DNA of 64,000 nucleotides from a virus (IMGVR_UViG_3300046001_004063:1-64000); one strand, 5' to 3'. Positions 10,140 through 34,933 are shown, numbered from the stretch's first letter. Notes: generated by a model not told the origin, from the letters alone. Numbers and translations: made by a program.

Positions 10140-10216
10140 TATACCGGTGAGTAGGGATTGCGGAAACGATCGTATCCGTCATCTTCTGGATATACTGGAT
10201 ATTCGTTTGTGTTCAT
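10139..10216 (-). CDS. 25-aa micropeptide MNTNEYPVYPEDDGYDRFRNPYSPV (not in ORF track)
   Basis: Fills the gap exactly: ATGA overlap with the upstream stop and TAATG overlap with the downstream start. Confidence 0.6.
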   Translation of the reverse strand: MNTNEYPVYPEDDGYDRFRNPYSPV

Positions 10217-12309
10217 TTTTTAGGTTGCACCGCTACAGGAACGTTTCGGTACACACGTTTTTCGGGGTCGTACACAGTCTTTAATGGGCCTGCACCGGCC
10301 AACTGTTTAAGACGTGCCATGGCCGCGTCAAACTTGTCGGCATCCATGTCGCCAACTTTTTCTTGAGATTCATTAGCAGGTGCTCTGGTGTAAGTTCCGT
10401 TTGGGTTTAGTTCCACTTTGGTTGAGCCCATGCTTCTAGATCCAACAGCCATTGACGGCGCAGTGACAACTTCGCCTTGTCCGGTTGCTTGAGCATCTGA
10501 GTTCCATTTATATTGCTTGCCCTTGTACGTTAGTATCCGAGTATCAACATCGTACTGTGCCTGAGGTTTTGCAAGATTGATTGAAGACGTTGACTGAGTT
10601 GGTGCAGTATCAGTTGCCTGTTGAGTTGCAATCGGCTTGCCTGTTAAACGATTGATGCCAGGATCATCTCCAGGCATGACTCTAGCTTGTGCTCCGCCTG
10701 CGCCCAGTGCCATTGCACCTGCCAATGCCGCGCCACCTAATTTTTCTTTCCAGCCTTCCTCTAATTCAGGTTCTTGATTGGATTCAATGTAGTCAGCCGC
10801 TGTGTCAAGATAGTCAGCAGCCAGGGTAACTTTCATCTGCACCCACTCTGGCATGTTTTCGTTGTCATCCAACAGGCCGTCAAGTCTACGGGCCGCACGT
10901 ACAATGGTGTTCATTTGATCTCTAGCTTGGTCGCCTTCGTAATCGTATTCGCCAGAGTCAGCGTGGTCAACCGAGTATCCGTCGCTGTCTACATCGCCTT
11001 CTGCTAGGCCTTCGCCTAACGCATCTATCTCTGCTTGCATTGCAGCCGCAAGTTTAGGGTTCTTTGCCTTCATTGCATCAATCTTTGCCTGCATTGCTGT
11101 TTTCACTTGTGCAGGATCACCATTTGCTATTTTTACATTGCCGGGCGCAGTAGATGTTTGCGTAATGTTATTTGTAACGTTAGATGGATTTTGCCTTACG
11201 CCTTGTCGGACCAGTTCGGCATTCTGTGCATCTCGTTCAGCGGCAGCGGCTTGTGATTTTTGGCGGTTTGCTTGATACTCTACTTCACGGGCTGCCTCTT
11301 GTTTGTCCAACTCTTTTTGCCATTCAGGTGTAGGTTTACCGGTAACTCCGTCATACTTAGCACCCTTACCTGTTGCAGGATCATATGGTTTATCAAGCGT
11401 AGATGGTGCCTTCGTTGTAGGTTGCTGTTGTGCAGGTTGTGTTGCGGCTGGTTGTGCGGCAGTGGCCGCCGGCCGTTGTTGTGCAGTTTGTGCGGCGGCA
11501 GCTTGGTTAGCTTGTTTAGCTTGTTTAATCTGGTCAGGTTTCATGCCTGGAAATTTAGTTAGGTCTAAGGTACCACCTTTTGCCACTGCACCGGGTGCGG
11601 CTTTGGCAGCAACTTGCGGCTTGCCAGTGTTCGGATCATATCCTTGTGGAGCGGCTGCGATTCTTGCTTGTGTAGCCGCATCAGGGACTACTGGTGCCGG
11701 AGCGGCCGGAGTAGGTGCTGCCGCCGATTGTCCTGGCTTGGTAAACATACTTTTGGCTTTGTTGACCATGTTGCCTACAAAGCCTTCGTCCATGTCATCA
11801 TCTGCTACACCTTGTTGGTCAGCAGTTTTACGACGAGCAACATCGCTCAAGTGTGTGACCACGCCACGTGGATCTTTGGGCTGACCTTGCTTGTTTTTTT
11901 CGACTGGGTGCCATTCTGAGTCGTCTTTCCAACTCACAACTTTACCTTGTTTGTCCTTGACTTCTGTGTGGCCTTCTGCTACACCTTGTTGCTTATCGTT
12001 GGGGTTGGTAGTCAACATGAACTCTTTGTCTTTGTTGAACAGCTTGGCCTGCATTATACGTGCGGCTTTGTTTGCGGCTGCCTTATCTTGGAATGCATAA
12101 GGATTGCCTGATTTATCTTTGATCAGTTTGCCATTGAGGCGAATATACCAAGTATTTGATTGTTGATCAAGGCCGTGATTCTCATCATTGGCACCACCAT
12201 CTGCACGATATGCTTGTGAGTCTTTGCCAAAGCCGCTGGTGCTATTGGCAACGTCACGTTCGTATGCGTCACGTGGGTCTCTCATTTCATATAGGTCATT
12301 TAGGTTCAT
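10213..12309 (-). CDS. Multi-module putative internal virion polyprotein
   Basis: MNLNDLYE leader; modules separated by QQGVAEG, QQGVAD/MDEG, GLAEG, LEEG and ANES; low-complexity Ala/Pro/Gln linkers. Confidence 0.7.
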   Translation of the reverse strand: MNLNDLYEMRDPRDAYERDVANSTSGFGKDSQAYRADGGANDENHGLDQQSNTWYIRLNGKLIKDKSGNPYAFQDKAAANKAARIMQAKLFNKDKEFMLTTNPNDKQQGVAEGHTEVKDKQGKVVSWKDDSEWHPVEKNKQGQPKDPRGVVTHLSDVARRKTADQQGVADDDMDEGFVGNMVNKAKSMFTKPGQSAAAPTPAAPAPVVPDAATQARIAAAPQGYDPNTGKPQVAAKAAPGAVAKGGTLDLTKFPGMKPDQIKQAKQANQAAAAQTAQQRPAATAAQPAATQPAQQQPTTKAPSTLDKPYDPATGKGAKYDGVTGKPTPEWQKELDKQEAAREVEYQANRQKSQAAAAERDAQNAELVRQGVRQNPSNVTNNITQTSTAPGNVKIANGDPAQVKTAMQAKIDAMKAKNPKLAAAMQAEIDALGEGLAEGDVDSDGYSVDHADSGEYDYEGDQARDQMNTIVRAARRLDGLLDDNENMPEWVQMKVTLAADYLDTAADYIESNQEPELEEGWKEKLGGAALAGAMALGAGGAQARVMPGDDPGINRLTGKPIATQQATDTAPTQSTSSINLAKPQAQYDVDTRILTYKGKQYKWNSDAQATGQGEVVTAPSMAVGSRSMGSTKVELNPNGTYTRAPANESQEKVGDMDADKFDAAMARLKQLAGAGPLKTVYDPEKRVYRNVPVAVQPKK

Positions 12310-13007
12310 TATGCTTCCTCAATATAGTCGGCTGACAGATCTTGTTTACGCTGTCTAGCCATGTACATTTCCAATGCCATCTGTGCTTGGTCCAAGTTCT
12401 TAAAGCGGCTCTTCATTGCACGTCCACCATGACGAATTTCAAATCCCGCACGTTCGTCTCCGTATATTTCGCAAGCACGACCATCTTCTAATGCAACGGT
12501 TTTAACCGGTGCCGATTCAGCATAGGTTGGTTCTTGCACAGGTGTTGTGGGCATTTGTACAATGGGATTCTCGTCGGTGGGATCTTCTGCAACAGCAGTG
12601 ATTTGTTTGGCAATGATGCTGGCATCTTTCGCAGGCTTTTTACTGATGTCACGATCTACTTGAACCCGGTCTTTTAAGTCAGTGTCTTTCTTTTCGTCAG
12701 CAATACTGTCAAGGTAGTCAGCAAAGGACTTTTTAACCTTGTCTAACTTGTCTTCACTGGTCACTGCTTCTTCCAGTGCATCCTGTTCAGGTTCTTCACT
12801 TTCGTTAGAGCCAACCATGTAACCAGCACTGGGAGCTTTCTTATCAGGATCGCCACCCAGCACTGGACCTTGATCGGGCATTTTAAATAATGCAGGCATT
12901 TGTGGCACAGACTTTTGTTGTGCGTTCAATCCTTTAGTAACCGTATCTGGGGTGATAGTGCTTTCAATCAATGCAAGCCTCTGCATTATTGTGTAAATTT
13001 CATCCAT
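12309..13007 (-). CDS. Putative internal head protein
   Basis: Coupled ORF (TAATG); LIES/LEEA/VAED/YAES linkers; C-terminal DYIEEA. Confidence 0.6.
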   Translation of the reverse strand: MDEIYTIMQRLALIESTITPDTVTKGLNAQQKSVPQMPALFKMPDQGPVLGGDPDKKAPSAGYMVGSNESEEPEQDALEEAVTSEDKLDKVKKSFADYLDSIADEKKDTDLKDRVQVDRDISKKPAKDASIIAKQITAVAEDPTDENPIVQMPTTPVQEPTYAESAPVKTVALEDGRACEIYGDERAGFEIRHGGRAMKSRFKNLDQAQMALEMYMARQRKQDLSADYIEEA

Positions 13008-13008
13008 G

Positions 13009-13449
13009 TTATGCCCTCGCGTCCTTCAAATAACTTTTCAGTTGCCACTGATACTTGCCGTGTTGGCTTTGGCGTTCTGCGGCAAAGTTTGCAATGTCTT
13101 CACGACCTTCGGCAGCGGCAGCTTCAAAAACTTGCCGGCTCATGCCAATCATGATCTGTGTATCTGCGAGTAATTCTTCCAGCATCAAACGAGCACGTGG
13201 CACTTTGGTTTGATCCGGTATCTGTGTTAGTTCTAAGAAGCGGCTGAGACTGCCGGGAGCATATTCATCTGTGGTACGAATGTATTCAGCAATGGGATCT
13301 ACTGCTGAATATGAATCTTCGTAGATGTTGGAAAAGAATTCGTGTAGTTCACCAAAGTCAGGTCCTTCTACATTCCAATGAAAATAGTGTGCCTTCAAAT
13401 AGTACGAAAACGTACTGGCCAAATAGGTCTTTAGTAAATCACTTAACAT
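13009..13449 (-). CDS. dps: Dps-family DNA-protection ferritin-like protein
   Basis: HYFHWNVEGPDFGELHEFF ... D.IAEYIR ... W.LKS signature. Confidence 0.92.
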   Translation of the reverse strand: MLSDLLKTYLASTFSYYLKAHYFHWNVEGPDFGELHEFFSNIYEDSYSAVDPIAEYIRTTDEYAPGSLSRFLELTQIPDQTKVPRARLMLEELLADTQIMIGMSRQVFEAAAAEGREDIANFAAERQSQHGKYQWQLKSYLKDARA

Positions 13450-13639
13450 TTGTTTTCCTTGCTTTCTTTCTCATACTTTTCGGTGTGTTTGGAAAAGGGT
13501 CATTGGTATATTTACCAGAAAAGAAACTATCGGGATTTCTTGCAATCATGCCACCCACGGGCATGGCCACTGTGGCAACGCTACCACTACTGGTGGCACC
13601 AACGGACGCATTTTCTTTGATAAATTCCTGAGCTCTCAT
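13439..13639 (-). CDS. Small putative internal head protein
   Basis: MRAQEFIKE leader followed by NASVGATSSGSVA and a basic tail. Confidence 0.65.
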   Translation of the reverse strand: MRAQEFIKENASVGATSSGSVATVAMPVGGMIARNPDSFFSGKYTNDPFPNTPKSMRKKARKTNVK

Positions 13640-13917
13640 GTGAGTATCTTTAGTAGATTTCCTTTGATTTTTCCGGGACCGTAATCCACACGCATATTCA
13701 AAACACGTATGGTGGCACCGGGAGAATTGACAAGTTCGTAACTGATTACATATTCGCCCGGCTCTGCTTCGATCTGTATCATTTCTTCAAGATATTCATC
13801 CCGCCAACGCCAGGTTCTTTCAGCAAATAATTCGTCATCTACGTAAACGCGGTAAACAGGTGGAGTTTCAGTCCAACTGCAATCAACGTCACATAGCACA
13901 CGAATAAACTGTTTCAT
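13636..13917 (-). CDS. Hypothetical protein
   Basis: 93 aa; TAAATA 4 nt before ATG; overlaps the next gene by ATGA. Confidence 0.7.
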   Translation of the reverse strand: MKQFIRVLCDVDCSWTETPPVYRVYVDDELFAERTWRWRDEYLEEMIQIEAEPGEYVISYELVNSPGATIRVLNMRVDYGPGKIKGNLLKILT

Positions 13918-13921
13918 ATTG

Positions 13922-13995
13922 TATTTAGCGTGATTAACTGTATAGTTAAATTAGCAATTTAACAGTGGGTATAAATCAGTAGTTCTACTTAAATA
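13922..13995. promoter_or_regulatory. Divergent pair of TAAATA late-type promoters
   Basis: TAAATA on minus (13922-13927) and plus (13990-13995), each 4 nt before an ATG; palindrome TTAACT-gtat-AGTTAA between them. Confidence 0.65.
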
Positions 13996-13999
13996 CTCA

Positions 14000-14707
14000 A
14001 TGACTGAACTTATCTATACCCTAATAGTCACACACATTACTATAATCTGTGTTACATTGTATCTACATCGCGGGCAAGCACATCGCGCGGTTACATTTCA
14101 CCCTGCGGTGGCACATTTTATGCGCTTTTGGTTATGGGGAACTACCGGCATGGTGACCAAACAATGGGTTAGCACTCATCGTAAGCATCATCGTTTTACT
14201 GAGCAACCAGGCGACCCACATAGCCCACATGTCTACGGTATATGGACCGTATTTTTTAAAGGTGCATTTTTATATAATCAAGCAACTAAAGACAACACAA
14301 TGGTTCAAGCGTATGGAGCAGGCACCCCAGACGATTGGATTGAACGCAATGTTTATACACCACATAGTCGTCTTGGCATCGTGCTTATGCTTATTATTGA
14401 TCTATGTTTATTTGGATTATGGGGATGGTTAGTTTGGTTAGTTCAGATAGTTTGGATTCCATTATGGGCTGCTGGTGTTGTCAATGGAGTTGGGCACTGG
14501 TGGGGGTATCGTAATACTAACACCAAAGATTTTAGTCGTAATATAGTGCCTTGGGATTTTTGGGTGGGCGGCGAGCTTTTACACAACAACCACCATGCGG
14601 ACCCAGCAAGTCCTAAACTAAGTCGTAAGTGGTATGAGTTTGATATTGGATGGTTATATATTAAACTATTAAGCTATTGTGGATTGGCTACGATCCGAAC
14701 TACTTAA
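14000..14707 (+). CDS. Membrane fatty-acid (delta-9-type) desaturase
   Basis: His boxes HRGQAH, HRKHH and HNNHH; DPHSP; WYEFDIGW. Confidence 0.93.
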   Translation: MTELIYTLIVTHITIICVTLYLHRGQAHRAVTFHPAVAHFMRFWLWGTTGMVTKQWVSTHRKHHRFTEQPGDPHSPHVYGIWTVFFKGAFLYNQATKDNTMVQAYGAGTPDDWIERNVYTPHSRLGIVLMLIIDLCLFGLWGWLVWLVQIVWIPLWAAGVVNGVGHWWGYRNTNTKDFSRNIVPWDFWVGGELLHNNHHADPASPKLSRKWYEFDIGWLYIKLLSYCGLATIRTT

Positions 14708-15277
14708 TTTGCATTTATTATGGTGCCGTTGATAAAATACATTAATAGGCAAGTCTTTTTTACAGCACAGACAACTTATCCTTACAGCTTTTTTTCCAAA
14801 GTTTGGACACAAAGGTCCTTTTGTTCCAAACATAGGATTGTTTTTGCCTGCTTTCTTGGCCCGTTGAACTGTTAAGGTTTCCTCACTGTGGCGCTTTCCA
14901 AAAAATGGGTTAAGCTCACCTTTTAATTTAGCACTTACTTCTGTACGCTTTTTACCAAAGTTTGGATGATTTTTTCCAGAGCGACTTGCTTTTTCTTCAG
15001 TTGACATAATACGGCCACTTATACCGTCTCCACCATCTGTTTTATTTCTAAGTATTCCTGTGCCCGTATCTTTGCGACCATACCATCTTATTAATCGTCG
15101 TTCAATGGCCAGAGAGCCAACTTCAGTTAATCCAGATTCGACAATAATGATTTTAGAACGATCTTTTGGAGGATGTACTTCGCCCTTGCCTTTTATCCAC
15201 GCACGTTTGCCTTTTCCTTTTCCGATGTAGTACGGAGTGTTGTCTTTTCTTAGATAGGCATAAACATAGTATTCCAT
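14669..15277 (-). mobile_element. Free-standing GIY-YIG homing endonuclease with NUMOD3-like repeats
   Basis: YYVYAYLR...PYYIGKG, E..LI..YGR, LRNKTDGG; repeats HPNFGKK/NPFFGKRHSEET/NPMFG. Confidence 0.88.
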
Positions 15278-15331
15278 AATAATACTTATTATATTATAGA
15301 TAAACTTTATTATTCTGGCACGGTTGCGTGA

Positions 15332-15520
15332 CTAACGCAGTTCTTTGATTGAGCCCACGTGCCAATCTTCGATGCGGTACTGTGCTTTGATCATTTGTCT
15401 AGCCACATGTGTGTTGGGAGCCCATACCACTGCATCGACCCAGCCCACATATCCAGGGTTCTGAACACGCACCTTGGCAGTCCATTGTTTTGCACCTCGG
15501 ATGATTTCTTTGGCTCGCAT
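15332..15520 (-). CDS. Small hypothetical protein (start moved to MRAKEII)
   Basis: TGATG coupling to the upstream ORF; MRAKEI leader like its neighbours. Confidence 0.6.
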   Translation of the reverse strand: MRAKEIIRGAKQWTAKVRVQNPGYVGWVDAVVWAPNTHVARQMIKAQYRIEDWHVGSIKELR

Positions 15521-16473
15521 CAGCAGTTCCAACGTCTACGAGCTTTGCAAATGGCCTTGTCCGGAGTCTTGGCACATGAAATATTGTGCATCTTCATTTG
15601 TCCGCGACTGCGGCTACAATAGCTCTTTCTACGCTTGCTGGCCTTGCTACCACGCTTTAGTTTGCTGGGTTTGGTAGTCACAGCAGTCTTTAGCTTTGAT
15701 CCTGGATTCTCTCTGCGATAAGCATTCACAGCCTTTTGACTCATGCCCGCAGTGCGATCTCGTTTGTTGGCCTTTTGCCAGTCTTCGTTCAGTTGCGAAG
15801 TCACAGCAAACACATACAGTTCATCTTCGGTTAGTGATTCTAAGTCCGCCCATACTGCTTCGGCGTCTACACCATTTTGTTCAGCAATACGATCGATAAT
15901 AGATTCAATAAGATCAAACTCTTCTGTCAAGCCTTCATCGGCATTGGGTTTGTCACGGAGTGGGCCGCCTGTGACCCAGGCATCGCAGGTTCTACGGCTG
16001 GCACATTTGAATTTTAAGAACTTACAATAACCCAGCTCACCTGCATCAATAACGCCGGCTGCATCCGCAGGAGAGTCACTGTCGATGCCTTGAGCAATGC
16101 AGTCCAAGGTTTCTTCTCGTATGTCAAACGCCGCACAGTTGCCGCATAGGCTTTGTTTGGCTTCCTCTGCTGAGTCCAAGTTCCACTCATCAACTTTTTT
16201 CATCCAGAACTTGGTGTTGGGCATGTCTGGGTTCAGCGGCCCATAGCCATAGTCATTGATGGCTTTTTGTCTGTTCTTGAGATTGAGTGTAATGTCTTGT
16301 GTAGCAGGAGGGCACTTGTTGTCAGAGTCTTCTGCTATGCTTTCAGCAGGCACACAGTTGTTTACACGTACTCCGCCCTTCATTTTAGTTTTAGGGTTGC
16401 CAATCTTTTTGCCTGTCCAGCACTTGGGATCCAAGCGGACTTTTTCTTCTACAATGAATTCGTTAGCTCTCAT
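15520..16473 (-). CDS. Multi-module putative internal virion protein with Cys-rich modules
   Basis: MRANEFIVEE leader; modules LDPKCW...NNCVP, CPPATQD...CGNC...C...C...C, and a basic EDWQKAN...CKARRRWNC; linkers IAED/GLTEE/LNED. Confidence 0.7.
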   Translation of the reverse strand: MRANEFIVEEKVRLDPKCWTGKKIGNPKTKMKGGVRVNNCVPAESIAEDSDNKCPPATQDITLNLKNRQKAINDYGYGPLNPDMPNTKFWMKKVDEWNLDSAEEAKQSLCGNCAAFDIREETLDCIAQGIDSDSPADAAGVIDAGELGYCKFLKFKCASRRTCDAWVTGGPLRDKPNADEGLTEEFDLIESIIDRIAEQNGVDAEAVWADLESLTEDELYVFAVTSQLNEDWQKANKRDRTAGMSQKAVNAYRRENPGSKLKTAVTTKPSKLKRGSKASKRRKSYCSRSRGQMKMHNISCAKTPDKAICKARRRWNC

Positions 16474-18335
16474 TTTTTCTTACCTCGTCGCATATTTAGT
16501 TGCCACTGTGCCATCCTGCGACGCTCGCCTGTGCTGGATTGAGCAATCTTTTCCAGTTGGCCCAAGGTGGCTTTTTTAGGAATCCCTACTCTGCGACTCA
16601 GCCCTTTGCGTCCAGGATTTTTACCATCCGCAAAGTTTTCATCTATCTCTTGTTCCCATACATTTTGTTCAGGACGATGCTTGTCCCAAAATCCAGCACC
16701 TGCATCAGTTTGCTGACCACTGCGGCGTATTTTATAGCCTTTGCTTTTTACATAGTCATACATTGTAGCGGCAATACCCTGACCTTGATAGCGTTCTTCT
16801 ACTTCTAAATCTTGCGGCATTAAGTAATCGCCTTCTTGAACAAATAATACATGTCCAAGTTCGCGGCCGCCTGGCATCATGGCCGTTATTAAAATTTCGT
16901 CATCTTCTTTTTCCAAGGAGATTTCTATTCCATTATAATGTTCCATGCCTTCCGCCACACCTTGTTCTACGCTTTCACTTTTGTATGTGGCTCCAGTGCA
17001 GACCCAAGCAGGGCCTGTGTATCCTTGAGGGAATGCCTTCAAATGCTGAATAGTTCTATGCCAACCTTCAATCAAATCATAACCGTTTGCTAATTTAGCA
17101 ACAATAATTGGTTCCGCACTCACACCCTTTTGCTGAATCATTTGTGATTGCAGTGCGTGTCTTTCAGCATCTTTTGGAACTTGAAAAGGATTAGAACTAC
17201 CACCTTCACGACTTTGAATCATACGCTGAGTTTTTGGTGTAAAGATATCTAGTGTGATGGGAATCTTAGTCAGTGTCCATTTACAATTACCAAAGTCTTG
17301 TTGTATTTCATCTAAAAAATCTTCTAAATCTTTTTGATTTTTATTACCTTTTGCCTTGGCATATAAAAAATCTCGTTGCACATATTCAGGCCATTGTGTT
17401 CTTGGAAATTTAGACTGAACCCAGGTCCAGAGTTGGTCACGATACTCACTTAGTGAGCCTTCCGCCACCGGTTGTTTTATTCTACTTAATTCGTATATAA
17501 CTTTGTTGCCAGTGTCTGCACGAAAAGCTCTGAAACCCCATGCTCTAGCATAACGCTGTACTAAACTATCATATAGTCTAGCTCTACTTTGTGCGTTTTG
17601 TCCTTGTTCAACTTCTTTACTGGCAGTAAAGGTTATTCTATTAGGAGTATACTTTTTAATAAACGTTTGTATAGCACTTAACACAGTGGCAAACACACGT
17701 TGTTGATCGCCTTCACCTGTGACTTCTTGGCTGTTGTTTCTATAGAATTCAACACTCCATGCTTCCTCTTTTGAATCTTTACTAAATCCCTTGTTAAACA
17801 TAATACTTAGAAAAGTTCCGTCATCTAATCGTGCTATTGCATCCACATCACCAAAGTCACCCTTTTCCCATCGAAGTAGTTCATACGGTTTATCAAATGC
17901 TTCTGTCAGACCCTGTGCAATTGCTTCACGGGCCTGGCGTTCATTCTCTACTTTGAATTTTTGTAAGGCTTGATTATCATTAATTTGTCTACGGTCCAAT
18001 TGTTGCCAAATTGACAAGTCAAATTTGAGAAGTTTTCGTTCTACTGCTTGTGCAAAACTAAGTTCATTATTACCTCGGCCTTGCCAATTAGGTTTCATGC
18101 CCCACACAACTGATACAGAATTATCGTAATCGTTGGACAGTGTAATTCTCATACGTTCGCCATAAAATACGTATGTACGTCCTTGCCAAGTAAAGTAAAG
18201 ATCACCATTACTTGTTTGTCCCGTGCTCCAGCCATGCTTTTTTTGCAGAGCACTAACTGCGGCTTGATCTGCATTTTCCGCCACACCTTGCCGAGTCTGT
18301 GCAACAACTTCTGTTATAAATTCACTAGCTCTCAT
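16470..18335 (-). CDS. Polyvalent putative internal virion protein: unknown modules + ParB/Srx-like + GNAT acetyltransferase
   Basis: MRASEFITE leader; EPIIV...LIEGWHR (ParB-like); EVEERYQGQGIAATMYD...AGAGFW (GNAT); linkers QGVAE, QGLTE, QPVAEG, QGVAEG, EIDE. Confidence 0.75.
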   Translation of the reverse strand: MRASEFITEVVAQTRQGVAENADQAAVSALQKKHGWSTGQTSNGDLYFTWQGRTYVFYGERMRITLSNDYDNSVSVVWGMKPNWQGRGNNELSFAQAVERKLLKFDLSIWQQLDRRQINDNQALQKFKVENERQAREAIAQGLTEAFDKPYELLRWEKGDFGDVDAIARLDDGTFLSIMFNKGFSKDSKEEAWSVEFYRNNSQEVTGEGDQQRVFATVLSAIQTFIKKYTPNRITFTASKEVEQGQNAQSRARLYDSLVQRYARAWGFRAFRADTGNKVIYELSRIKQPVAEGSLSEYRDQLWTWVQSKFPRTQWPEYVQRDFLYAKAKGNKNQKDLEDFLDEIQQDFGNCKWTLTKIPITLDIFTPKTQRMIQSREGGSSNPFQVPKDAERHALQSQMIQQKGVSAEPIIVAKLANGYDLIEGWHRTIQHLKAFPQGYTGPAWVCTGATYKSESVEQGVAEGMEHYNGIEISLEKEDDEILITAMMPGGRELGHVLFVQEGDYLMPQDLEVEERYQGQGIAATMYDYVKSKGYKIRRSGQQTDAGAGFWDKHRPEQNVWEQEIDENFADGKNPGRKGLSRRVGIPKKATLGQLEKIAQSSTGERRRMAQWQLNMRRGKKK

Positions 18336-18336
18336 A

Positions 18337-21300
18337 TCAACTCACAATTGGTAGCACAGTAACATCTGCACCATGGCTGTAGCCATTGTCGGTCAACCAT
18401 TGTGTGGCCACACGGTTAGCATCACGCTGTTGATTGCCTATGCCGGAGAATCGATGCAGTTCATTGCCATCAGAATCTACAATCTTCCAAGCACCTGTAA
18501 ATGTACCTGGTGTGGCTCGTTGTTGTGCTAGGTCTGCGGTGGATCCTGCAGCAGGTGTAGATGCCGTTTCTTCTGCAGGTTCCACTTGATAGTTGCCATC
18601 CCAGTTGTATTCTCTAGCCCACACTGCGGCAAGTTCGTTGGCCTTGGCTCTGGTATTAACTGCAGGACGGAAACGATATACTTCGCGGCCTAACCCGTCA
18701 ATGATTTTCCATTGTCCAGTTGGGCTTGTGGCAGCACGACCTGCGGCTATTGGCATGTCTATATCAACAATTCCCACTCCACCGACGGTACGTATGCCAA
18801 ACATACGTTCAGCCTGACCTCGTTGTAGGCTATGTGGACCGTGTTCAATGTAATCATTCAGGCGAACCAATGCCTCTTCATCATTGGTGATTCCATCAGC
18901 ATCCTCTACTGAGTTGCCAGTTTGTTTGTTGTAAATTTCGTAGCGAACAGTTTTTGCAGATTGTTCATATGGACGCAATGGCTTTGCAGTCATATCATTA
19001 GCTGTGGCCCAATCTGGATATTCTGCACGACCTTTTTCAATGGCTTCTTCTTTGCTGGTAGCAACAACTTCAACACTGGCTCCATATCCAGGACGACCTA
19101 CACTCCACCAGTATTTTTCACCGCCTGTTGGATCTTTCTTCAACTTGCGTTCCAATTGTGCCTGCTTAACAAAACTACGCAAGGCAGCCGCAGGAATCTT
19201 GCCTGCTACGTATTCACTGAAGTACTTGATAGTGTCAGAACCTTTGTTGTCCTGTGTCAACAACTTGTACAGTTTCTTCAAGTATTCTTCGCGATACATT
19301 TCAGGATTCAGTGCCGCACTCATGGCCACTGTGAAACGCAACAGGGTGTTTTCAATTTGATCAAAGTTTTGATCCAACCAATCGCCGCCAGGGCTACGGA
19401 ATTCAATGTGTCCATCTTTGGTGTTGATACTGGTGTACTTGCTGGTCACACCCGAATGAATGGCTTTACTTGCCAAACTATCCAAGTTGCCTTTCATTTT
19501 GTTTAGTAACCGTTCTGCTTCGTCGGGCTTTTGCCGCACCTGATCACGTACCATTTTTATTGCTGGCTTGGCATAGGTATTGCCAGCACGTCCAAACAAG
19601 TCCAGTACATACTCATCGCCCATCAGCAGGGCTAACTTTACAAAGTCCAAGTTCTCTCTGCTGTAGTTGGGCACAGATATGTTGATGTGCAGGCCTGTTG
19701 AATCATTGGTGTAGCAACCATATACCTTGGCCCACTTTTTAACCTTGTTCAAGTCACTTAATATATCGTCAATGGGCAAGGGTGGGCTCACAAACTCCAG
19801 GCCTACATCATCGCTGTCATCGGCTTCTAAACTGCCATCAGGTTCCACAATATAATGTTGTGCAGTAGGGCTAGGTCTTGTTACCCCGCCACTGTGGTAG
19901 TTGCCGCTGGCTCGAACGTCACGTCCTATTGCATCTTGGAATTCGTTAGCAACATCTTCGATACTGGCTTCGCCACCACCCTGTTGTTCAAAATGGGGCC
20001 AACTCATGTTGTATTCACGTTCAATGTCTGACATGCGATTCAAATCTCGATCTTCTAGCCATTCTGATTCTAGGTCTGCATTCTGATTAAAATCTTCTTG
20101 TGCAGATTCACGTGCCGCATCGTACCAATAGTTGCCATAGCTTTCTTCTATTACTTTTTCTGTGGCATCGCGATATGCTTGTTTGTCTGCTACATATTCG
20201 CCGTCTACGCCGGGCTCTGTGCCTAGTATTTCTGCAATTTCATCTGCACTGGCGTTTTCTTTAAGGTAATTGTAGACAAATTCTGATTCGTCGCCGTCCC
20301 ATCGAGTATCAAACGACTCACTTAACCATTCGTAGTATTCATCCTGCATCCGGTCACGCAGTCTAGTGACATCGCCGCGGCTGTTGTAATCGCCATCGTA
20401 GAAGAAATCATAAGCCTCCTGTATGCTACTAACACCTTCATCGTAACTGTAATCTGCTTCCATTTGACCGTCGTCATCGCCGCCTTCAACATTGGGCACA
20501 ATCATTTCAAATTCCATGCCGGCAATGGCACCGGTCTTGGCAGCTTCGCGACGTAGGCTGCCTGTGCTCATGTTGATTTCAAACAGCATGTCATCAATGC
20601 CTTCGGCAATTAAATCTTCATCAGTTTTGGGTTGATGTTTGTCTGTGACATCTTCGCCACCTTCTACATCAGGATCGATGTCGTGTGTTTTTAGTCCCAG
20701 GCGTTTGAACTGTTTCAAGTAGCCCTGTTCTGCTTCATCGCTGGGGAAAACAACAACTGTTTGTGGTGGACCTTGATTGTAATTTTCCGGTTTGGCATCA
20801 TCCAAGTCAGATATGTCCATGCCCAACTGATACCAGTCAGTCAGGTCTTTAACATCAATTTTGGTTGTGCCTGCGGGAAATTGTGGTGGAAACTCTGGAC
20901 CTGTTGCTTCTTGATTGCCCAGTTCATCTTCACGTTCTCCGGGCACTTGACTCAAGGGTGTGGAGTTGTATCCATAACTTTTGTTGGACGTACGGCCAGT
21001 TTCTTTAAACTCGCGCAGTGCATTGGCCAAGCCGGTCATTAACAAGCCCGGATGTCCTTGACTGTCAGTTTTTAATCCCAACTTGTTTGCTTCTTTACCC
21101 ACTGCACCCGGACGCACATCTTGTGTCAGAGCCATGCTAAAGCGTGGGTCTCGAGCCTGCTTCTTTGTGGGAATGTATCCTGATGCTTCTGCTAACTCAT
21201 CTGCTTGCCCGGCAGCAAAATGTTCCGGGTGTAGTTTGGCATAGTCACGCATGAGTACGCCGGCACGAGCATTGGCTTCGTTTTCGTATGGACTGCCAGT

Positions 21301-22401
21301 TTCCCCTGCATCTGGTCCCATATCACTGCCATCACGTTCGTGTTGATGCTTGTGTGTGAGTTCATGAGCCACTGTGCGCAACACATCCATGATGTGTCGC
21401 TGACCCCAGGCCACTTCTAACATTTTTTCATCGTCGTTATACCGGCCAAATGTTTTGTGCCGCACAGGCCATTGTGGATCCTTGCGCAAGCGAATGCGTG
21501 GCATCTGTTCAATCGTTAATTCTGCAACACAAAACTCCACAAAGTCTGTAAGTATGTCTTCGTCTGATTTGGGTTCTTCATTCAAGAACATCTGTGTTGT
21601 GGGACTTACTCCGTCCCATGAAGCGCCAACATCTTCTGTGGCTTTGAATCCGTAGGTGAATCTAAATGGTTTATCAATTTCAATCGTGCGTTCTTTAAGA
21701 CTCAGTGCTCGATCTTTGGCAGCGGTTCTGGCATCATACAGTTTTTGTATCACACCCTGCGACCGCAACATCTTGTACGCAATGTTTTCTGGACCCAGTT
21801 CACCGTGCTGATCAAGACCAGCTTGACGCATCTTTTTAATCTTGGCAGCAGTGTTGGTCAAGCGTTTTAGACTGCCAGATTTTACTGCTGATTCAATGCG
21901 ATGTTTGATCACATCGTACTTGCTCTTTACCGCAGTGTCGTTTACTGTGGAACGTTTCTTAAGTGGAATGTTGATCCAGTCGTTGTTCAGCACACTGAAT
22001 ATGCCTTGACTGACTGCTGATTTGTTGGCGTTTTCCACATAGAGTTCTACATCGTAGCCACCAATTTTAATATTGTGTGTTTCGTTGTACTGAAACTTTT
22101 TAGCATCAAACAGCTCGCGATACACTTCACTCACATCTGCTTCAGGCAAATCAACTACCAGGTGCAGGTCAATATCACTATGTGGAGTATATGTATAACC
22201 AGCATTGCTGCCGGACAAGGTAATGTCTTTGAGGTTTAGATCTGTAAGTCCAAGACTCTGTTTAAAGTCTTCGGCAATTTGTAACAGTTTAGCCCGCACC
22301 TGTGGGCGCATTTTATTAGCCTGCCAGATACGTGGATTTAACTGTTCGTTGAATTTCACAGCGTCGGCGAGGTTATAGGAATCTAATTCAGAAATATTCA
22401 T
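18337..22401 (-). CDS. Polyvalent protein: Pol-beta-type nucleotidyltransferase + zincin-like peptidase + COOH-NH2 amidoligase + C-terminal repeats (start moved to 22401)
   Basis: GSNAGY...SDIDLH...VELYVE (NTase); AHELTH...ENEAN (HExxH); GMEFE...EPDGSL...GLEFVSP...TGLHINIS...IEFRSPGG (amidoligase); TAAATA before ATG 22401. Confidence 0.8.
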   Translation of the reverse strand: MNISELDSYNLADAVKFNEQLNPRIWQANKMRPQVRAKLLQIAEDFKQSLGLTDLNLKDITLSGSNAGYTYTPHSDIDLHLVVDLPEADVSEVYRELFDAKKFQYNETHNIKIGGYDVELYVENANKSAVSQGIFSVLNNDWINIPLKKRSTVNDTAVKSKYDVIKHRIESAVKSGSLKRLTNTAAKIKKMRQAGLDQHGELGPENIAYKMLRSQGVIQKLYDARTAAKDRALSLKERTIEIDKPFRFTYGFKATEDVGASWDGVSPTTQMFLNEEPKSDEDILTDFVEFCVAELTIEQMPRIRLRKDPQWPVRHKTFGRYNDDEKMLEVAWGQRHIMDVLRTVAHELTHKHQHERDGSDMGPDAGETGSPYENEANARAGVLMRDYAKLHPEHFAAGQADELAEASGYIPTKKQARDPRFSMALTQDVRPGAVGKEANKLGLKTDSQGHPGLLMTGLANALREFKETGRTSNKSYGYNSTPLSQVPGEREDELGNQEATGPEFPPQFPAGTTKIDVKDLTDWYQLGMDISDLDDAKPENYNQGPPQTVVVFPSDEAEQGYLKQFKRLGLKTHDIDPDVEGGEDVTDKHQPKTDEDLIAEGIDDMLFEINMSTGSLRREAAKTGAIAGMEFEMIVPNVEGGDDDGQMEADYSYDEGVSSIQEAYDFFYDGDYNSRGDVTRLRDRMQDEYYEWLSESFDTRWDGDESEFVYNYLKENASADEIAEILGTEPGVDGEYVADKQAYRDATEKVIEESYGNYWYDAARESAQEDFNQNADLESEWLEDRDLNRMSDIEREYNMSWPHFEQQGGGEASIEDVANEFQDAIGRDVRASGNYHSGGVTRPSPTAQHYIVEPDGSLEADDSDDVGLEFVSPPLPIDDILSDLNKVKKWAKVYGCYTNDSTGLHINISVPNYSRENLDFVKLALLMGDEYVLDLFGRAGNTYAKPAIKMVRDQVRQKPDEAERLLNKMKGNLDSLASKAIHSGVTSKYTSINTKDGHIEFRSPGGDWLDQNFDQIENTLLRFTVAMSAALNPEMYREEYLKKLYKLLTQDNKGSDTIKYFSEYVAGKIPAAALRSFVKQAQLERKLKKDPTGGEKYWWSVGRPGYGASVEVVATSKEEAIEKGRAEYPDWATANDMTAKPLRPYEQSAKTVRYEIYNKQTGNSVEDADGITNDEEALVRLNDYIEHGPHSLQRGQAERMFGIRTVGGVGIVDIDMPIAAGRAATSPTGQWKIIDGLGREVYRFRPAVNTRAKANELAAVWAREYNWDGNYQVEPAEETASTPAAGSTADLAQQRATPGTFTGAWKIVDSDGNELHRFSGIGNQQRDANRVATQWLTDNGYSHGADVTVLPIVS

Positions 22402-22423
22402 GATTGTAATATTTAGCGCAAAT

Positions 22424-22451
22424 AAAAAAGCCACTGGGTAAAGTGGCTTTT
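22424..22451. terminator. Intrinsic terminator (possibly bidirectional)
   Basis: AAAAAAGCCACT-gggtaa-AGTGGCTTTT hairpin with A/T tracts on both sides. Confidence 0.75.
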
Positions 22452-22474
22452 GGATTGGCTATTAAACTAGCAGT

Positions 22475-32616: not shown

Positions 32617-32894
32617 TTAACGGCTCCTTCAAATATATTCTTTTGTATCTGATACCACTGTTGCCAAGCATCTGCTTTCACAGCGCACTCATAGTATGTG
32701 CCATAGTTGATGGTTACTGTTCTTGCAACATCACTTAACACAGGTGCATCTTTTAATTTTTCTAAATTGGGACAACGTTCTAAAGAGTTTAGCCCAGGCG
32801 GTTCAGGAAACCGTGCAGTAACTGGTACTGCGGTTGAGCATCCTGCAAGTGCGACAAGTACGGCCAAACTAACTACAACACTTTTGCTACTCAT
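32613..32894 (-). CDS. o-spanin-like lipoprotein (Rz1-like)
   Basis: Lipobox LAGC, Pro-rich stretch, two further Cys; adjacent to the endolysin. Confidence 0.75.
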   Translation of the reverse strand: MSSKSVVVSLAVLVALAGCSTAVPVTARFPEPPGLNSLERCPNLEKLKDAPVLSDVARTVTINYGTYYECAVKADAWQQWYQIQKNIFEGAVK

Positions 32895-34933
32895 TTCCTA
32901 TACCTTTTACTTTCGGGTGCCATTCCCCAGGATGCGTCTTCGGCTGCCACTGCGGGTGGTTTTGCTGTGGCCGTCTGGTATCCAGAGAAACCAGTTTTAC
33001 TAAAGTTTGTAACAGGCGCGGCAGATTTCTTTGGTGCCAATAACCCACCGTAGGTTACCTTAGACGGTGCACCTGCTGTGGTAGATGTTGCTTGAGGAGC
33101 CGCTGGTTTAGCAACTGGTGCGGCTGGTGCGGCTGGTGCGGCTGGTGCGGCTGGTGCGGCTGGTGCGGCTGGGTTAGCAACCGGAGTCGCTGGGTTAGCA
33201 CCCGGTACACCAGCAAACGGTATCTTCATTGTTCCGTAAACTTGCTTGACAGAAGCAGATGGCACACCTGCATCTTGCATCACTTTGGCCACAGCCTCAC
33301 TGTCAGTTGGGTTGCCTGCTTTCTTCCATGCTTGTAATAGTTTGTCAGCAGTGATTTTGGTTGTCAAGTTAGCGCCTTTGGTCTTGGCCCAGTCAACTGC
33401 TGAACCAACTGCTTTACTGGCAGCACCTTTGACACTATCCCAGATTCCTTCGTCAAGTTTGCGTTGACGTTCGAGGATCTTGCCAATCACCAAATAGATT
33501 TGGCTTTCAGTTAAATCGATACTTTCATTGACGCCGGCTGCTTTTGCTACAGCCGCTTTACCTGCGGCCATTGCCGCTTGCTTAGCCGCTTGGATCATAT
33601 ATGGACTGTTGCCTGCTCGCGCCATTCCCTTAGCTAGTGTCTGTTGAAATTCAGGAGTAGCCATTATTTGATCTATAGTGATTCCAGAAACATTACCAGC
33701 AAAATCACTCACTGCGCTAGTTGCAACATTAGAGGCAGCATTTGCGGCAGTACCTACCGCTGAGCCGCCACCGTCTTGTAGTTGTTGCATTAATTGGGCA
33801 CGAACTTGCTTTGTTAAAAGGTCTTTGCCCATCTGTGTTAGACCTTCACCGGTAGCACCTACAATGTTATCTGTTAAATCCAATACATCATTATAACTGT
33901 TTACCCCATTAGCGGCAATAAGTTCTTTCACTGAGTCATTTGCGGCTTTAAATGCGGCATCTTGTGCGGCTCTAGCCGAAGCAACACTACTAGCGGCTGT
34001 ACTTACATCTGGTGTGCCTTTAATCAAGTCGCCAATCTTACTAGCACCGTAAGCCATTGCGCCTGTTTTAGCACCTGAGTATGCGGCACTGGAGAACTTC
34101 TCACCTTGCAACAACTTGTCTACCAGTTTGAACAACCCAACAGCGGCTGCACCACCAACTCCCGCGGTGCTGATACCAGCGGCAGCAATCAATGCTGAAT
34201 AGATTAAACTCTGTGCAACAGGATGCTTCTTAGCAAAGTCTCTGTACTTTTGTACATATTTCATAGCACCCTGGTCGCCACCGGTTGCTTGCTTTAGTTT
34301 CTCGGCGGCACTATCATACATGGCATCAACGTTCTTGATGGGACCAGAGTTCTGTACTTTGGTCTTTAGTTCTTCCCATGCTTGACCAACAGCACTGGCA
34401 GCATCTTTGCCTTGGCCAATCAAGGTACGATTGCCGCCTGCGGCAGTGGCACCTTGTTCTACTTGTTGGAAGATTTGATTAATTTGATCAGCAGTTAGTT
34501 GTGCTTCAGAAATTCTTTGTCCAGCATTTTCCCACAACTTGTATGTGCGTGTTTCTGTAATCATTACTTTTGTTGTGCGATTGCTCTCACTTACTTTCTT
34601 GGGCAATGATTTATAATTTTGTTTACGATCAGCACCGTGAAATTCCTTGGCAACGTCCGGACTGATACCAACTTTCCGGGCAAACTTGGGATTGTGTGCG
34701 GCTGCTGCCATTGTGCGGAACTGTGCTTGGCTGGTGCTCTTTTCATCTAGTTGTTCTTCAGCTAGGCCGCCTGCTTGTGCATCTTGGTCGGCCATTCGAA
34801 CAGTTTCTGCGTCACGTCGTTGATCAGCCGCTTGTGATTGCCAACTGTCGGGATTGTCGGCTTGATCTTCAACCATGGCGGCCCTGGACGCCGCTACTCT
34901 AGGTGTTTCGTTTATAAATTCATTAAATTTCAT
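32891..34933 (-). CDS. Multi-module putative internal virion protein
   Basis: MKFNEFINE leader; linkers LAEE/LDE/VSES/ITE/VNES/LDEG; Ala/Gly-rich hydrophobic segment; PAA repeats. Confidence 0.65.
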   Translation of the reverse strand: MKFNEFINETPRVAASRAAMVEDQADNPDSWQSQAADQRRDAETVRMADQDAQAGGLAEEQLDEKSTSQAQFRTMAAAAHNPKFARKVGISPDVAKEFHGADRKQNYKSLPKKVSESNRTTKVMITETRTYKLWENAGQRISEAQLTADQINQIFQQVEQGATAAGGNRTLIGQGKDAASAVGQAWEELKTKVQNSGPIKNVDAMYDSAAEKLKQATGGDQGAMKYVQKYRDFAKKHPVAQSLIYSALIAAAGISTAGVGGAAAVGLFKLVDKLLQGEKFSSAAYSGAKTGAMAYGASKIGDLIKGTPDVSTAASSVASARAAQDAAFKAANDSVKELIAANGVNSYNDVLDLTDNIVGATGEGLTQMGKDLLTKQVRAQLMQQLQDGGGSAVGTAANAASNVATSAVSDFAGNVSGITIDQIMATPEFQQTLAKGMARAGNSPYMIQAAKQAAMAAGKAAVAKAAGVNESIDLTESQIYLVIGKILERQRKLDEGIWDSVKGAASKAVGSAVDWAKTKGANLTTKITADKLLQAWKKAGNPTDSEAVAKVMQDAGVPSASVKQVYGTMKIPFAGVPGANPATPVANPAAPAAPAAPAAPAAPAAPVAKPAAPQATSTTAGAPSKVTYGGLLAPKKSAAPVTNFSKTGFSGYQTATAKPPAVAAEDASWGMAPESKRYRK
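33115..33172. repeat. 9-bp tandem repeat (CTGGTGCGG) x6, encoding (PAA)n
   Basis: Six perfect copies plus a partial copy, read directly. Confidence 0.95.

What the first reader, a model, noticed from the sequence alone, without database searches (positions are those of the whole stretch)
11801..18290. Conserved DNA word CAAGGTGTGGCGGAAGGC at module junctions: candidate domain-shuffling recombination site
Seen on the minus strand: CAAGGTGTGGCGGAA at 18276-18290, CAACCGGTGGCGGAAGGC at 17457-17474, CAAGGTGTGGCGGAAGGC at 16947-16964, CAACAAGGTGTAGCAGAAGGC at 11971-11991 and CAACAAGGTGTAGCAGA at 11801-11817. Looser copies lie at 17901-17915, ~10996-11013 and ~15919-15936. Synonymous positions are identical within each gene (GTG-GCG-GAA three times in one gene), although the enclosed modules are unrelated and look more AT-rich by eye (about 16965-18275). 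Inference: the QGVAEG codons double as a short-homology or site-specific crossover point, so effector cassettes can be inserted in frame and each is released automatically by the head protease. This would be an integron-like cassette system working inside genes.
Basis: partly seen in the sequence, partly recalled or inferred. Interest (0 to 1): 0.9.

Follow-up and report, generated by a model that had tools for sequence, protein, structure and literature searches.

The report
DNA-fixed cassette junction in phage polyproteins
A giant uncultured T4-related lake phage builds several probable head-cargo proteins from unrelated small modules joined by a short linker (Q-G-V-A-E-G) whose DNA is fixed even at silent positions. 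Related phages gain, lose and move modules exactly at this linker, which also looks like a cut site for the head-maturation protease.

Summary
All eight listed copies are at the stated coordinates, in frame, in three adjacent minus-strand genes.

The window belongs to a ~340-kb T4-superfamily jumbo phage. The genes start with T4-CTS-like leaders (MRAxEFIxE), and their modules end in hydrophobic-x-Glu.

- **Silent sites.** In relatives found by protein homology, the motif Ala uses the rare GCG at 53 of 76 junctions, against 6.9% elsewhere in the same ORFs (p = 4e-41). The exact 17-mer occurs at least 162 times in IMG/VR, 161 in frame, with very diverse flanks.
- **Breakpoints.** DNA homology breakpoints pile up at the word. 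Contigs 97-99% identical differ by clean module indels, swaps and a between-gene move bounded by the word.

Every copy in the window sits on such a breakpoint.

Near-complete relatives have no tyrosine or serine recombinase but do have a UvsX/RecA homologue. Short-homology recombination is therefore more likely than an integron-type mechanism.

Cleavage and packaging are inferred, not measured. The AT-richness claim is weak.

This scan has already reported the same linker in at least eight other genomes.

The parts
16470..18335 (-). 621-aa polyprotein: leader, 11-aa spacer, four unrelated modules (A unknown, B DUF6934, C ParB/Srx fold, D GNAT-like) and a basic tail
   Evidence: Translation. 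Pfam hits: DUF6934 above cut-off; weak GNAT and ParB_N. Each module has its own set of relatives.
18309..18335 (-). Leader MRASEFITE, resembling the T4 capsid targeting sequence MKTYQEFIAE
   Evidence: The T4 sequence is found in 10.1101/2021.01.19.427310. Roles of CTS residues 4, 7, 8 and 10 are in PMC9026906. The same leader type starts ORFs at 16473, 13639 and 34933.
18276..18290 (-). Word copy 1, CAAGGTGTGGCGGAA (QGVAE|N), between the leader spacer and module A
   Evidence: DNA homology with L025 and L026 starts at 18278.
17901..17915 (-). Looser copy CAGGGTCTGACAGAA (QGLTE|A), junction of modules A and B
   Evidence: HSPs end at 17897-17906, including L120 at 96% identity. In L120 the leader ...ITE is joined directly to module B.
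17457..17474 (-). Word copy 2, CAACCGGTGGCGGAAGGC (QPVAE|G), junction of modules B and C
   Evidence: HSP ends fall at 17468-17476 in more than 10 loci.
16950..17459 (-). Module C, ParB/sulfiredoxin-fold domain with invariant EGWHRT; the most mobile cassette
   Evidence: AlphaFold pLDDT 89, with a disordered tail over the linker. Foldseek top hits are sulfiredoxin and ParB, probability about 1. Found in 371 cluster representatives, in proteins of 125-1852 aa, at any position.
16947..16964 (-). Word copy 3, canonical CAAGGTGTGGCGGAAGGC (QGVAE|G), junction of modules C and D
   Evidence: HSPs from more than 20 loci end at 16947-16950. Eleven different sequences follow GAA in relatives.
15520..16473 (-). 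317-aa protein: leader MRANEFIVEE, a Cys-rich module, then a module with DUF6321
15919..15936 (-). Looser copy GAAGGCTTGACAGAAGAG (EGLTE|E). Relatives have the canonical word immediately before GLTE here.
   Evidence: HSPs with L038 and L120 start exactly at 15936. L120 reads ...ESQGVAEGLTEEFDL.
10213..12309 (-). 698-aa polyprotein with a conserved leader module and C-terminus and a variable interior
   Evidence: Relatives of 400-935 aa share the ends and differ inside.
11971..11991 (-). Word variant CAACAAGGTGTAGCAGAAGGC (QQGVAE|G), upstream flank of the GHTEVKDK module
   Evidence: HSPs at 92% identity end at 11971-11974. The GTA-GCA variant flanks this module in four different contexts.
11801..11817 (-). 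Word variant CAACAAGGTGTAGCAGA(T) (QQGVAD), downstream flank of the same module. Asp replaces Glu at the cut position.
   Evidence: In T4, Asp at CTS position 10 blocks processing (PMC9026906). In relatives the next module follows here directly, whereas the window has a 268-aa insert.
10996..11013 (-). Looser copy GAAGGCCTAGCAGAAGGC (EGLAE|G), end of the 268-aa insert
   Evidence: HSPs from at least 14 loci start at 11012.
10756..10767 (-).
   Evidence: HSP ends fall at 10753-10773 in many loci. Protein comparison.
18337..22401 (-). 1354-aa polyvalent protein: Pol-beta NTase, HExxH zincin, amidoligase and C-terminal repeats. It has no canonical word.
   Evidence: The probable start is the ATG at 22401, which matches the N-termini of L018 and L026.
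21187..21198 (-). ELAE|A site in the polyvalent protein. The L018 orthologue carries a 365-aa insert here; a canonical word precedes the insert and a second one follows its ParB-like module.
13439..13639 (-). 66-aa ORF with leader MRAQEFIKE
   Evidence: Conserved in L120.
32891..34933 (-). 680-aa protein with leader MKFNEFINE and a GGLAE site
   Evidence: PHROG hits to 'virion structural protein' families at residues 66-127.

Best explanation
The word is the standard in-frame junction of a cassette-built family of phage polyproteins.

**Protein level (inferred).** Each module ends in hydrophobic-x-Glu, most often Q-G-V-A-E followed by Gly. The genes mostly begin with a T4-like capsid targeting leader. 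The chain is therefore probably carried into the prohead and cut into separate modules by the gp21-type prohead protease. The pieces would then be ejected with the DNA, as T4 internal proteins and Alt are.

**DNA level (shown by comparison; mechanism inferred).** The 15-17 nt CAAGGTGTGGCGGAAGG is kept at silent positions across hundreds of otherwise unrelated junctions. It is the point at which related phages insert, delete, replace and relocate modules. The most likely mechanism is ordinary recombination by the phage's UvsX-type machinery, using the word as a short patch of homology. This could occur between co-infecting relatives or between two copies in one genome. Every such crossover keeps the reading frame and recreates a cleavable linker. 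Cassettes carry their flanking word copies with them. The word probably stays uniform because junctions are young and because modules flanked by the common form spread best.
For: **1. Silent-site conservation.** In loci found by protein homology, not by the word, 76 junctions were distinct on at least one flank:

| Codon | At the motif | Elsewhere in the same ORFs | p |
|---|---|---|---|
| Ala GCG | 53/76 | 186/2697 | 4e-41 |
| Gly GGT | 60/76 | 40% | 2e-11 |
| Val GTG | 44/58 | 25% | 3e-15 |

- A synonymous 17-mer built from the favoured codons occurs in 33 stretches, all single copies.

**2. Breakpoints.**
- 18% of 2230 internal blastn HSP ends lie within 3 nt of the motif end, against 0.15% for random positions.
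- HSPs that share the upstream module stop at 0 to +5. HSPs that share the downstream module start at -17 to -11.
- The share of breakpoints at the word is highest among the most similar pairs: 157 of 242 internal ends at 90-95% identity.

**3. Recent events.**
- L014 and L062 have flanks 96.6-98.7% identical. One gene is 679 aa in L014 and 378 aa in L062. The difference is an exact three-module indel between two copies of AAGGTGTGGCGGAGG.
- A second gene in the same pair has its interior modules replaced.
- One module sits in different genes in the two contigs.
- L017 and L028 are 99.9% identical for 5.6 kb, then differ by one module lying between the leader and the word.

**4. In the window.** All eight copies lie on homology breakpoints. 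The GTA-GCA variant flanks one module on both sides in four contexts.

**5. Protease reading.**
- The leaders resemble the T4 CTS (PMC9026906).
- Relatives whose DNA polymerase is 71-85% identical to the window's encode a Peptidase_S77 prohead protease and a gp23-type capsid protein with ...HLAE|NATAG.
- The linker region is disordered in the model of module C.

**6. Recombination machinery.** There is no Tyr or Ser recombinase, but a RecA/UvsX homologue is present in relatives 97-99% complete.
Against: - No cleavage, packaging or recombination event has been observed directly. All of this is comparative inference.
- Because every junction carries the word, a breakpoint at the word does not prove that the crossover took place in it. 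Selection for cleavable in-frame fusions would also place breakpoints there.
- Some junctions use non-canonical sites with only 5-7 nt in common: ITE/LTE in L120, VWE|ASGY in L026, and ELEE|G.
- About 60% of internal HSP ends are not at the word.
- The head genes of relatives do not use QGVAEG. The long form is therefore not shown to be the protease's preference.
- The 1354-aa protein and some relatives lack a CTS-like leader and carry their own zincin peptidase. That peptidase could be the processing enzyme instead.
- 15-17 nt is short for T4-type homologous recombination.
Confidence: 0.62

Rival explanations
1. The word is conserved for a reason unrelated to recombination, for example a demand on the mRNA or on translation: a pause at the rare GCG codon, or at the SD-like AAGGUG, to let modules fold. 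Modules would then be shuffled by random illegitimate recombination, and selection would keep only in-frame, cleavable fusions.
For: - Some junctions lie at non-canonical sites with minimal shared DNA.
- GCG is a rare codon.
- All copies but one are in frame, so no copy shows a function free of coding.
Against: - Four codons, including the common GGT and CAA, are fixed together, not only the rare one.
- No start codon or shared structure follows the word; the flanks are very diverse.
- Clean indels occur between copies in genomes 97-99% identical.
- One variant form flanks the same module on both sides. That fits copying of DNA, not codon-level selection.
Confidence: 0.12
2. The word is a true site-specific target, which would make this an integron-like system in the strict sense. 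A dedicated enzyme, such as a recombinase or a homing-type nuclease, would cut or pair it.
For: - The 17-mer is exact across phages whose polymerases differ by 15-29%.
- A NUMOD3 homing endonuclease gene lies among the polyprotein genes at 14669-15277 and is absent from the close relative L120.
Against: - No tyrosine or serine recombinase was found in near-complete relatives, while the controls were positive.
- The word is not palindromic.
- Variant words and non-canonical junctions are tolerated.
- There are only 2-6 copies per genome.
Confidence: 0.1
3. The linker is cut, but by the zincin metallopeptidase carried in the polyvalent proteins themselves rather than by the prohead protease. Alternatively it is not cut at all and serves only as a flexible spacer.
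For: - An HExxH zincin domain is present in the 1354-aa protein and at the C-terminus of the L014 and L062 polyproteins.
- Such peptidases are predicted to process polyvalent proteins (PMC5512222).
- Some polyproteins lack a CTS-like leader.
Against: - The 621-, 698- and 317-aa proteins have no peptidase domain.
- The site has the Glu-at-P1 form typical of T4-type and giant-phage prohead proteases (PMC5694885).
- The leaders look like the CTS.
- Single-module proteins join the leader directly to the module at [IL]-x-E.
Confidence: 0.15

Closest known systems
T4 internal proteins IPI, IPII, IPIII and Alt (capsid targeting sequence, gp21 processing, ejection with the DNA)
   Same: - A short N-terminal leader of similar sequence (MRASEFITE against MKTYQEFIAE).
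- A cut site of the form hydrophobic-x-Glu.
- Highly variable cargo among relatives.
- A T4-type protease and capsid genes in the same phage family.
   Different: - T4 cargo proteins are single units, each with its own gene and leader. Here up to five or more unrelated modules share one leader and one reading frame.
- The internal linkers are uniform and fixed at the DNA level.
- Packaging and cutting have not been measured here.
PeSL-mediated modular shuffling in T4-type phages (Arbiol et al. 2010, PMC2839356; PMC4122927)
   Same: - A short conserved DNA motif flanks variable cassettes.
- Indels and replacements between close relatives are bounded by the motif.
- Exchange is attributed to the phage's own homologous recombination, without an integrase.
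- The authors also draw the integron comparison.
   Different: - PeSLs are about 100-bp intergenic promoter plus stem-loop elements that move whole genes.
- Here the motif is 15-17 nt, lies inside genes, is read as protein, and moves protein domains in frame.
- Mini-circles were shown for PeSLs and could not be sought here.
Polyvalent proteins of phages and conjugative elements (Iyer et al. 2017, PMC5512222)
   Same: - Many unrelated effector-type domains sit in one polypeptide (ParB/Srx, Pol-beta NTase, zincin peptidase).
- The protein is thought to be delivered with the DNA and processed into units.
- The 1354-aa protein fits this description.
   Different: - The word 'linker' does not occur in that paper's main text, and none of the passages shown for 'recombination' concerns a junction site.
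- Processing there is ascribed to the built-in zincin peptidase.
Polymorphic toxin systems (CdiA, Rhs; from my own knowledge, not tested here)
   Same: A conserved short peptide motif marks the border before variable modules. Its coding DNA is thought to serve as the homology for module replacement.
   Different: - Those are bacterial secreted toxins with one variable C-terminal tip and a cognate immunity gene.
- Here there are serial modules, no immunity genes were seen, and the setting is a phage head.

Membership tests
T4-type capsid-targeted, gp21-processed head cargo | N-terminal targeting leader of about 10 residues ending in [IL]-x-E | tested here: met
   MRASEFITE, MRANEFIVEE, MRAQEFIKE and MKFNEFINE, compared with T4 MKTYQEFIAE. 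This is sequence resemblance only. The 698-aa and 1354-aa proteins have different N-termini.
T4-type capsid-targeted, gp21-processed head cargo | The phage encodes a gp21-type prohead protease (Peptidase_S77) and a gp23-type capsid protein | tested here: inconclusive
   Found in relatives G006 and G007, whose polymerase is 71-85% identical to the window's. Not found in the window's own 75-kb record, which is only 22% complete.
T4-type capsid-targeted, gp21-processed head cargo | The protein is found in virions, cut after Glu | not testable with these tools
   No proteomic data are available. There is only a weak PHROG 'virion structural protein' hit, for the 680-aa leader-bearing protein.
Integron | IntI-type tyrosine recombinase | tested here: not met
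   PF00589 has no match in the window's record or in four relatives, two of them 97-99% complete. The controls rang in 14 of 14 genomes. PF00239 also has no match.
Integron | attC-type recombination site (imperfect inverted repeats that fold) | tested here: not met
   Read directly, the word CAAGGTGTGGCGGAAGG has no inverted-repeat symmetry. Its flanks are unrelated among copies.
PeSL-type modular shuffling | Indels and replacements between close relatives are bounded by a conserved short motif | tested here: met
PeSL-type modular shuffling | The motif is an intergenic early promoter plus stem-loop | tested here: not met
   161 of 162 copies lie in frame inside long ORFs.
PeSL-type modular shuffling | Excised mini-circles joining two motif copies | not testable with these tools
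Polyvalent proteins (Iyer et al. 2017) | Two to fifteen unrelated effector-type domains in one phage polypeptide, including ParB/Srx, NTase or zincin | tested here: met
   NTase and amidoligase. HExxH read directly. ParB/Srx fold. GNAT hit weak.

The most novel reading that the evidence does not exclude
The word may be more than passive homology. It could be an actively used recombination hotspot, for example one recognised by a phage nuclease or acting like a Chi site. Word-flanked modules would then excise as circles and reinsert at any other copy. That would give giant phages a true intragenic cassette system for assembling injected anti-defence arsenals, with the protease site ensuring that each new cassette is released.
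Probability: 0.15. Interest if true: 0.95.

Novelty: new variant of a known kind. Interest (0 to 1): 0.8.

Why it matters
**Evolutionary interest.** If the reading holds, these phages solve two problems with one 17-nt sequence. Any module dropped in at the word is in frame, is carried into the head behind a single leader, and is freed by the maturation protease. This would be a domain-level counterpart of the gene-level cassette exchange known from PeSLs and integrons. It would also explain how large phages diversify their injected proteins so quickly.

**A resource.** The linker gives a simple sequence handle for harvesting thousands of candidate injected effectors from metagenomes. Module C alone occurs in 371 protein clusters.

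**Practical use.** It suggests a natural design rule for loading foreign proteins into T4-type heads as cleavable strings.

**A general question.** It makes testable whether silent-site conservation in coding DNA can be maintained by recombination alone.

Tried and rejected
- **Megablast of 10000-22500 against GenBank phages:** no match.
- **Pfam gp23 and Peptidase_S77 in the window's record and four fragmentary relatives:** nothing, and the controls were silent too, so this is uninformative. Both families were later found in two larger relatives.
- **Single-linkage clustering of modules cut at the motif:** it chained into one giant family, because some segments hold several modules. I dropped it in favour of the breakpoint analysis.
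- **phmmer of the 621-aa protein against PDB sequences:** no hit.
- **Scan of bacterial genomes for the 17-mer:** at least 120 single hits, mostly in high-GC genomes (median 65% GC) and never more than one per locus. I read this as chance background in 596 Gb, not as host or prophage copies.
- **A QGVAE match near the head genes of G007:** it is out of frame with non-canonical codons, so it is a chance match.
- **Internal translation start after the word:** rejected, because the next codons are diverse.
- **Foreign origin of modules from base composition:** rejected.
- **Complex prediction of protease with linker:** not attempted.

Full report
**What is in the window**

The window is the first 64 kb of a 75,097-base IMG/VR virus record rated 22% complete. 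Its B-family DNA polymerase (806-3463, minus strand) is 42-49% identical to those of Sinorhizobium phage Phosso, Agrobacterium phage Atu_ph07 and the Rak2/GAP32 group. It is 71-85% identical to the polymerases of five larger IMG/VR contigs of 168-343 kb, two of which are rated 97-99% complete. The source is therefore an uncultured jumbo phage of about 340 kb in the T4 superfamily. The related contigs have a median GC of 41%.

Between 10.2 and 22.4 kb lies a minus-strand run of genes:
- A 1354-aa protein (18337-22401) with a Pol-beta nucleotidyltransferase, an HExxH zincin and an amidoligase.
- A 621-aa protein (16470-18335).
- A 317-aa protein (15520-16473).
- After a homing endonuclease, a desaturase, a Dps-like gene and two small ORFs, a 698-aa protein (10213-12309).

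**Check of the observation**

The peptides are QGVAE|N, QGLTE|A, QPVAE|G and QGVAE|G in the 621-aa gene, EGLTE|E in the 317-aa gene, and QQGVAE|G, QQGVAD and EGLAE|G in the 698-aa gene.

The strict degenerate pattern occurs twice, against none in 100 shuffles.

GTG-GCG-GAA is used three times in one gene, although GCG makes up only 8.6% of Ala codons in this genome.

The statement that the enclosed modules are AT-richer is only marginally true. They are 38-41% GC, against an ORF mean of 42.9 +/- 3.7%. The modules of the 698-aa gene are GC-richer than average.

**The word is conserved as DNA, not only as peptide**

I collected relatives by protein homology, so that the sample is not biased towards the word. 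This gave 76 GVAE or GMAE junctions that differ on at least one flank:
- 36 use exactly GGT GTG GCG GAA.
- The Ala codon is GCG in 53 of 76, against 186 of 2697 elsewhere in the same ORFs (Fisher p = 4e-41).
- GGT is enriched at p = 2e-11 and GTG at p = 3e-15.

These hold 162 copies, 161 of them read as QGVAEG inside long ORFs (median 564 aa). The flanking peptides are extremely diverse, and 32 loci hold two to four copies. A synonymous control word made of the favoured codons gave 33 stretches, all single copies.

In near-complete relatives there are only 2-6 QGVAE sites per genome, and 10 of 16 are the exact word. One of the 16 later proved to be an out-of-frame chance match.

The head genes of relatives do not use this long form. 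Their capsid protein has ...HLAE|NATAG. The extended identity is therefore not explained by a need of the essential protease substrates.

**Modules break at the word**

Module C of the 621-aa protein (aa 293-462) recurs in relatives in proteins of 277-1933 aa. It has at least 11 different sequences upstream and at least 11 downstream. Homology stops exactly after ...QGVAE.

A full scan of 1.84 billion cluster representatives found module C in 371 clusters, in proteins of 125-1852 aa, at any position. Often it lies directly behind an MRAxEF[IL]xE leader, and it is often followed by ...QQGVAE.

In an all-against-all blastn of the loci:
- 18% of 2230 internal HSP ends fall within 3 nt of the motif end, against 0.15% for random positions.
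- HSPs that share the upstream module stop at 0 to +5. HSPs that share the downstream module start at -17 to -11. The two kinds of homology therefore overlap only in the word.
- The share of breakpoints at the word is highest among similar pairs: 157 of 242 internal ends at 90-95% identity and 42 of 75 at 95-98%.

**Recent events**

Contigs L014 and L062 are 96.6-98.7% identical over about 9 kb.
- One gene is 679 aa in L014 and 378 aa in L062. The difference is three whole modules (301 aa) lying between two copies of AAGGTGTGGCGGAGG, and L062 keeps a single copy.
- In a second gene about 6 kb away, the leader and the C-terminal part are shared but the interior modules are different.
- One module (…DGQVVFSGTGADGGKYEI…) sits in the first gene in L014 and in the second gene in L062.

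L017 and L028 are 99.9% identical for 5.6 kb. They then differ by one module placed between the leader and the word.

**The window's own copies**

All eight copies lie on such breakpoints.
- 18278, 17897-17906, 17468-17476 and 16947-16950 bound modules A, B and C.
- The close relative L120 (96% identity in module B) has only leader, module B and tail.
- 15936 is the start of the DUF6321-bearing module.
- 11971-11974, 11795-11811 and 11012 bound the modules of the 698-aa gene. Its relatives keep the two ends and vary the interior.

That module carries the same variant on both sides in four different contexts. The identity within the gene therefore reflects word copies travelling with the cassette. 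Across ORFs, word pairs within an ORF are somewhat more alike than shuffled pairs (0.52 against 0.32, p = 0.012, small sample).

The 1354-aa protein has no canonical word. However, at its ELAE|A site (21187-21198) the L018 orthologue carries a 365-aa insert. A canonical word (…DQQGVAE) precedes that insert, and a second one follows its ParB-like module. L026 combines the nucleotidyltransferase with modules B and D of the window's 621-aa protein.

**What the linker probably does in the protein**

This part is inference.
- The leaders resemble the T4 capsid targeting sequence MKTYQEFIAE. In that sequence, residues 4 and 7 direct targeting, residues 8 and 10 direct processing, and Asp at position 10 blocks processing (PMC9026906).
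- Prohead proteases of T4 and of giant phages all cut after Glu in a short motif (PMC5694885).
- Relatives encode a Peptidase_S77 protease next to scaffold and capsid genes.
- In single-module proteins the leader's [IL]-x-E abuts the module exactly where polyproteins have the linker.
- The linker is disordered in a confident model of module C (pLDDT 89). That model has the ParB/sulfiredoxin fold.

By the T4 rule, the copy at 11801-11817, which encodes Asp instead of Glu, would not be cut.

An alternative protease is the zincin carried by the polyvalent proteins themselves (PMC5512222).

**How the DNA word probably works**

Two relatives that are 97-99% complete have no tyrosine or serine recombinase, with positive controls, but they do have a RecA/UvsX homologue. 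The word is not an inverted repeat. Strict integron membership therefore fails.

The pattern fits recombination through a short patch of identity, as proposed for the intergenic PeSL elements of T4-type phages. Those authors cite T4 recombination as needing under 50 bp of homology and also draw the integron analogy (PMC2839356).

Several caveats apply.
- Breakpoints at a universal linker cannot by themselves separate crossover in the word from selection for cleavable fusions.
- Some junctions use non-canonical sites with 5-7 nt in common.
- No circles or split reads could be sought.

**Novelty**

Full-text searches found no phage paper containing QGVAEG and no description of such linkers. In the polyvalent-protein paper the word 'linker' does not occur in the main text.

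The closest known systems are T4 internal proteins and Alt, PeSL shuffling, and polyvalent proteins. What differs here is an in-frame, DNA-fixed junction that is at once a probable protease site and the exchange point. I rate it a new variant of a known kind.

This scan has already reported the same linker in at least eight other genomes, with the same reading. I reached my reading before consulting those notes and re-tested the claims here.

Noticed in passing
window 14669-15277 (-): A NUMOD3 homing-endonuclease gene lies among the polyprotein genes. Together with the 66-aa ORF at 15332-15532, it is absent from the otherwise collinear close relative L120. This is a typical presence/absence polymorphism.
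   Followed up: partly
window 13009-13449 (-) and 14000-14707 (+): A Dps/ferritin-like protein (Pfam E = 9e-21) and a fatty-acid desaturase-like membrane protein are embedded in the polyprotein gene cluster. The Dps gene is syntenic in L120 and G007.
   Followed up: no
window 11801-11817 (-): One word copy has GAT (Asp) instead of GAA (Glu) at the predicted cut position. In T4, Asp at this position blocks processing. Two modules of the 698-aa protein may therefore stay fused.
   Followed up: partly
window 18335-18337 and 16470-16473: The polyprotein genes are tightly coupled. The stop of the 1354-aa gene lies one base from the start of the 621-aa gene, and the 621-aa and 317-aa genes overlap by ATGA. 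Three leaders share the DNA ATG AGA GCT nnn GAA TTy ATh nnn GAA. That sequence could be a second homology patch: the L017/L028 event has its left end there.
   Followed up: partly
window 26769-29051 (-): A 760-aa Lon-like ATP-dependent protease (PHROG 4871, E = 2e-228). This is another phage-encoded protease that I did not consider further as a processing enzyme.
   Followed up: no
window 16473-16655 (-) and 15520-15760 (-): A basic C-terminal tail (ENFADGKNPGRKGL...RRGKKK) and the DUF6321 tail recur as terminal units after the last linker in many relatives (…QGVAE|NFADGK…). They may be a DNA-binding or anchoring end-piece.
   Followed up: partly
window 9507-10139 (-), 60390-61925 (-): A dCMP/cytidine deaminase-like gene lies directly downstream of the 698-aa polyprotein. 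A radical SAM protein lies further along. Neither was examined.
   Followed up: no
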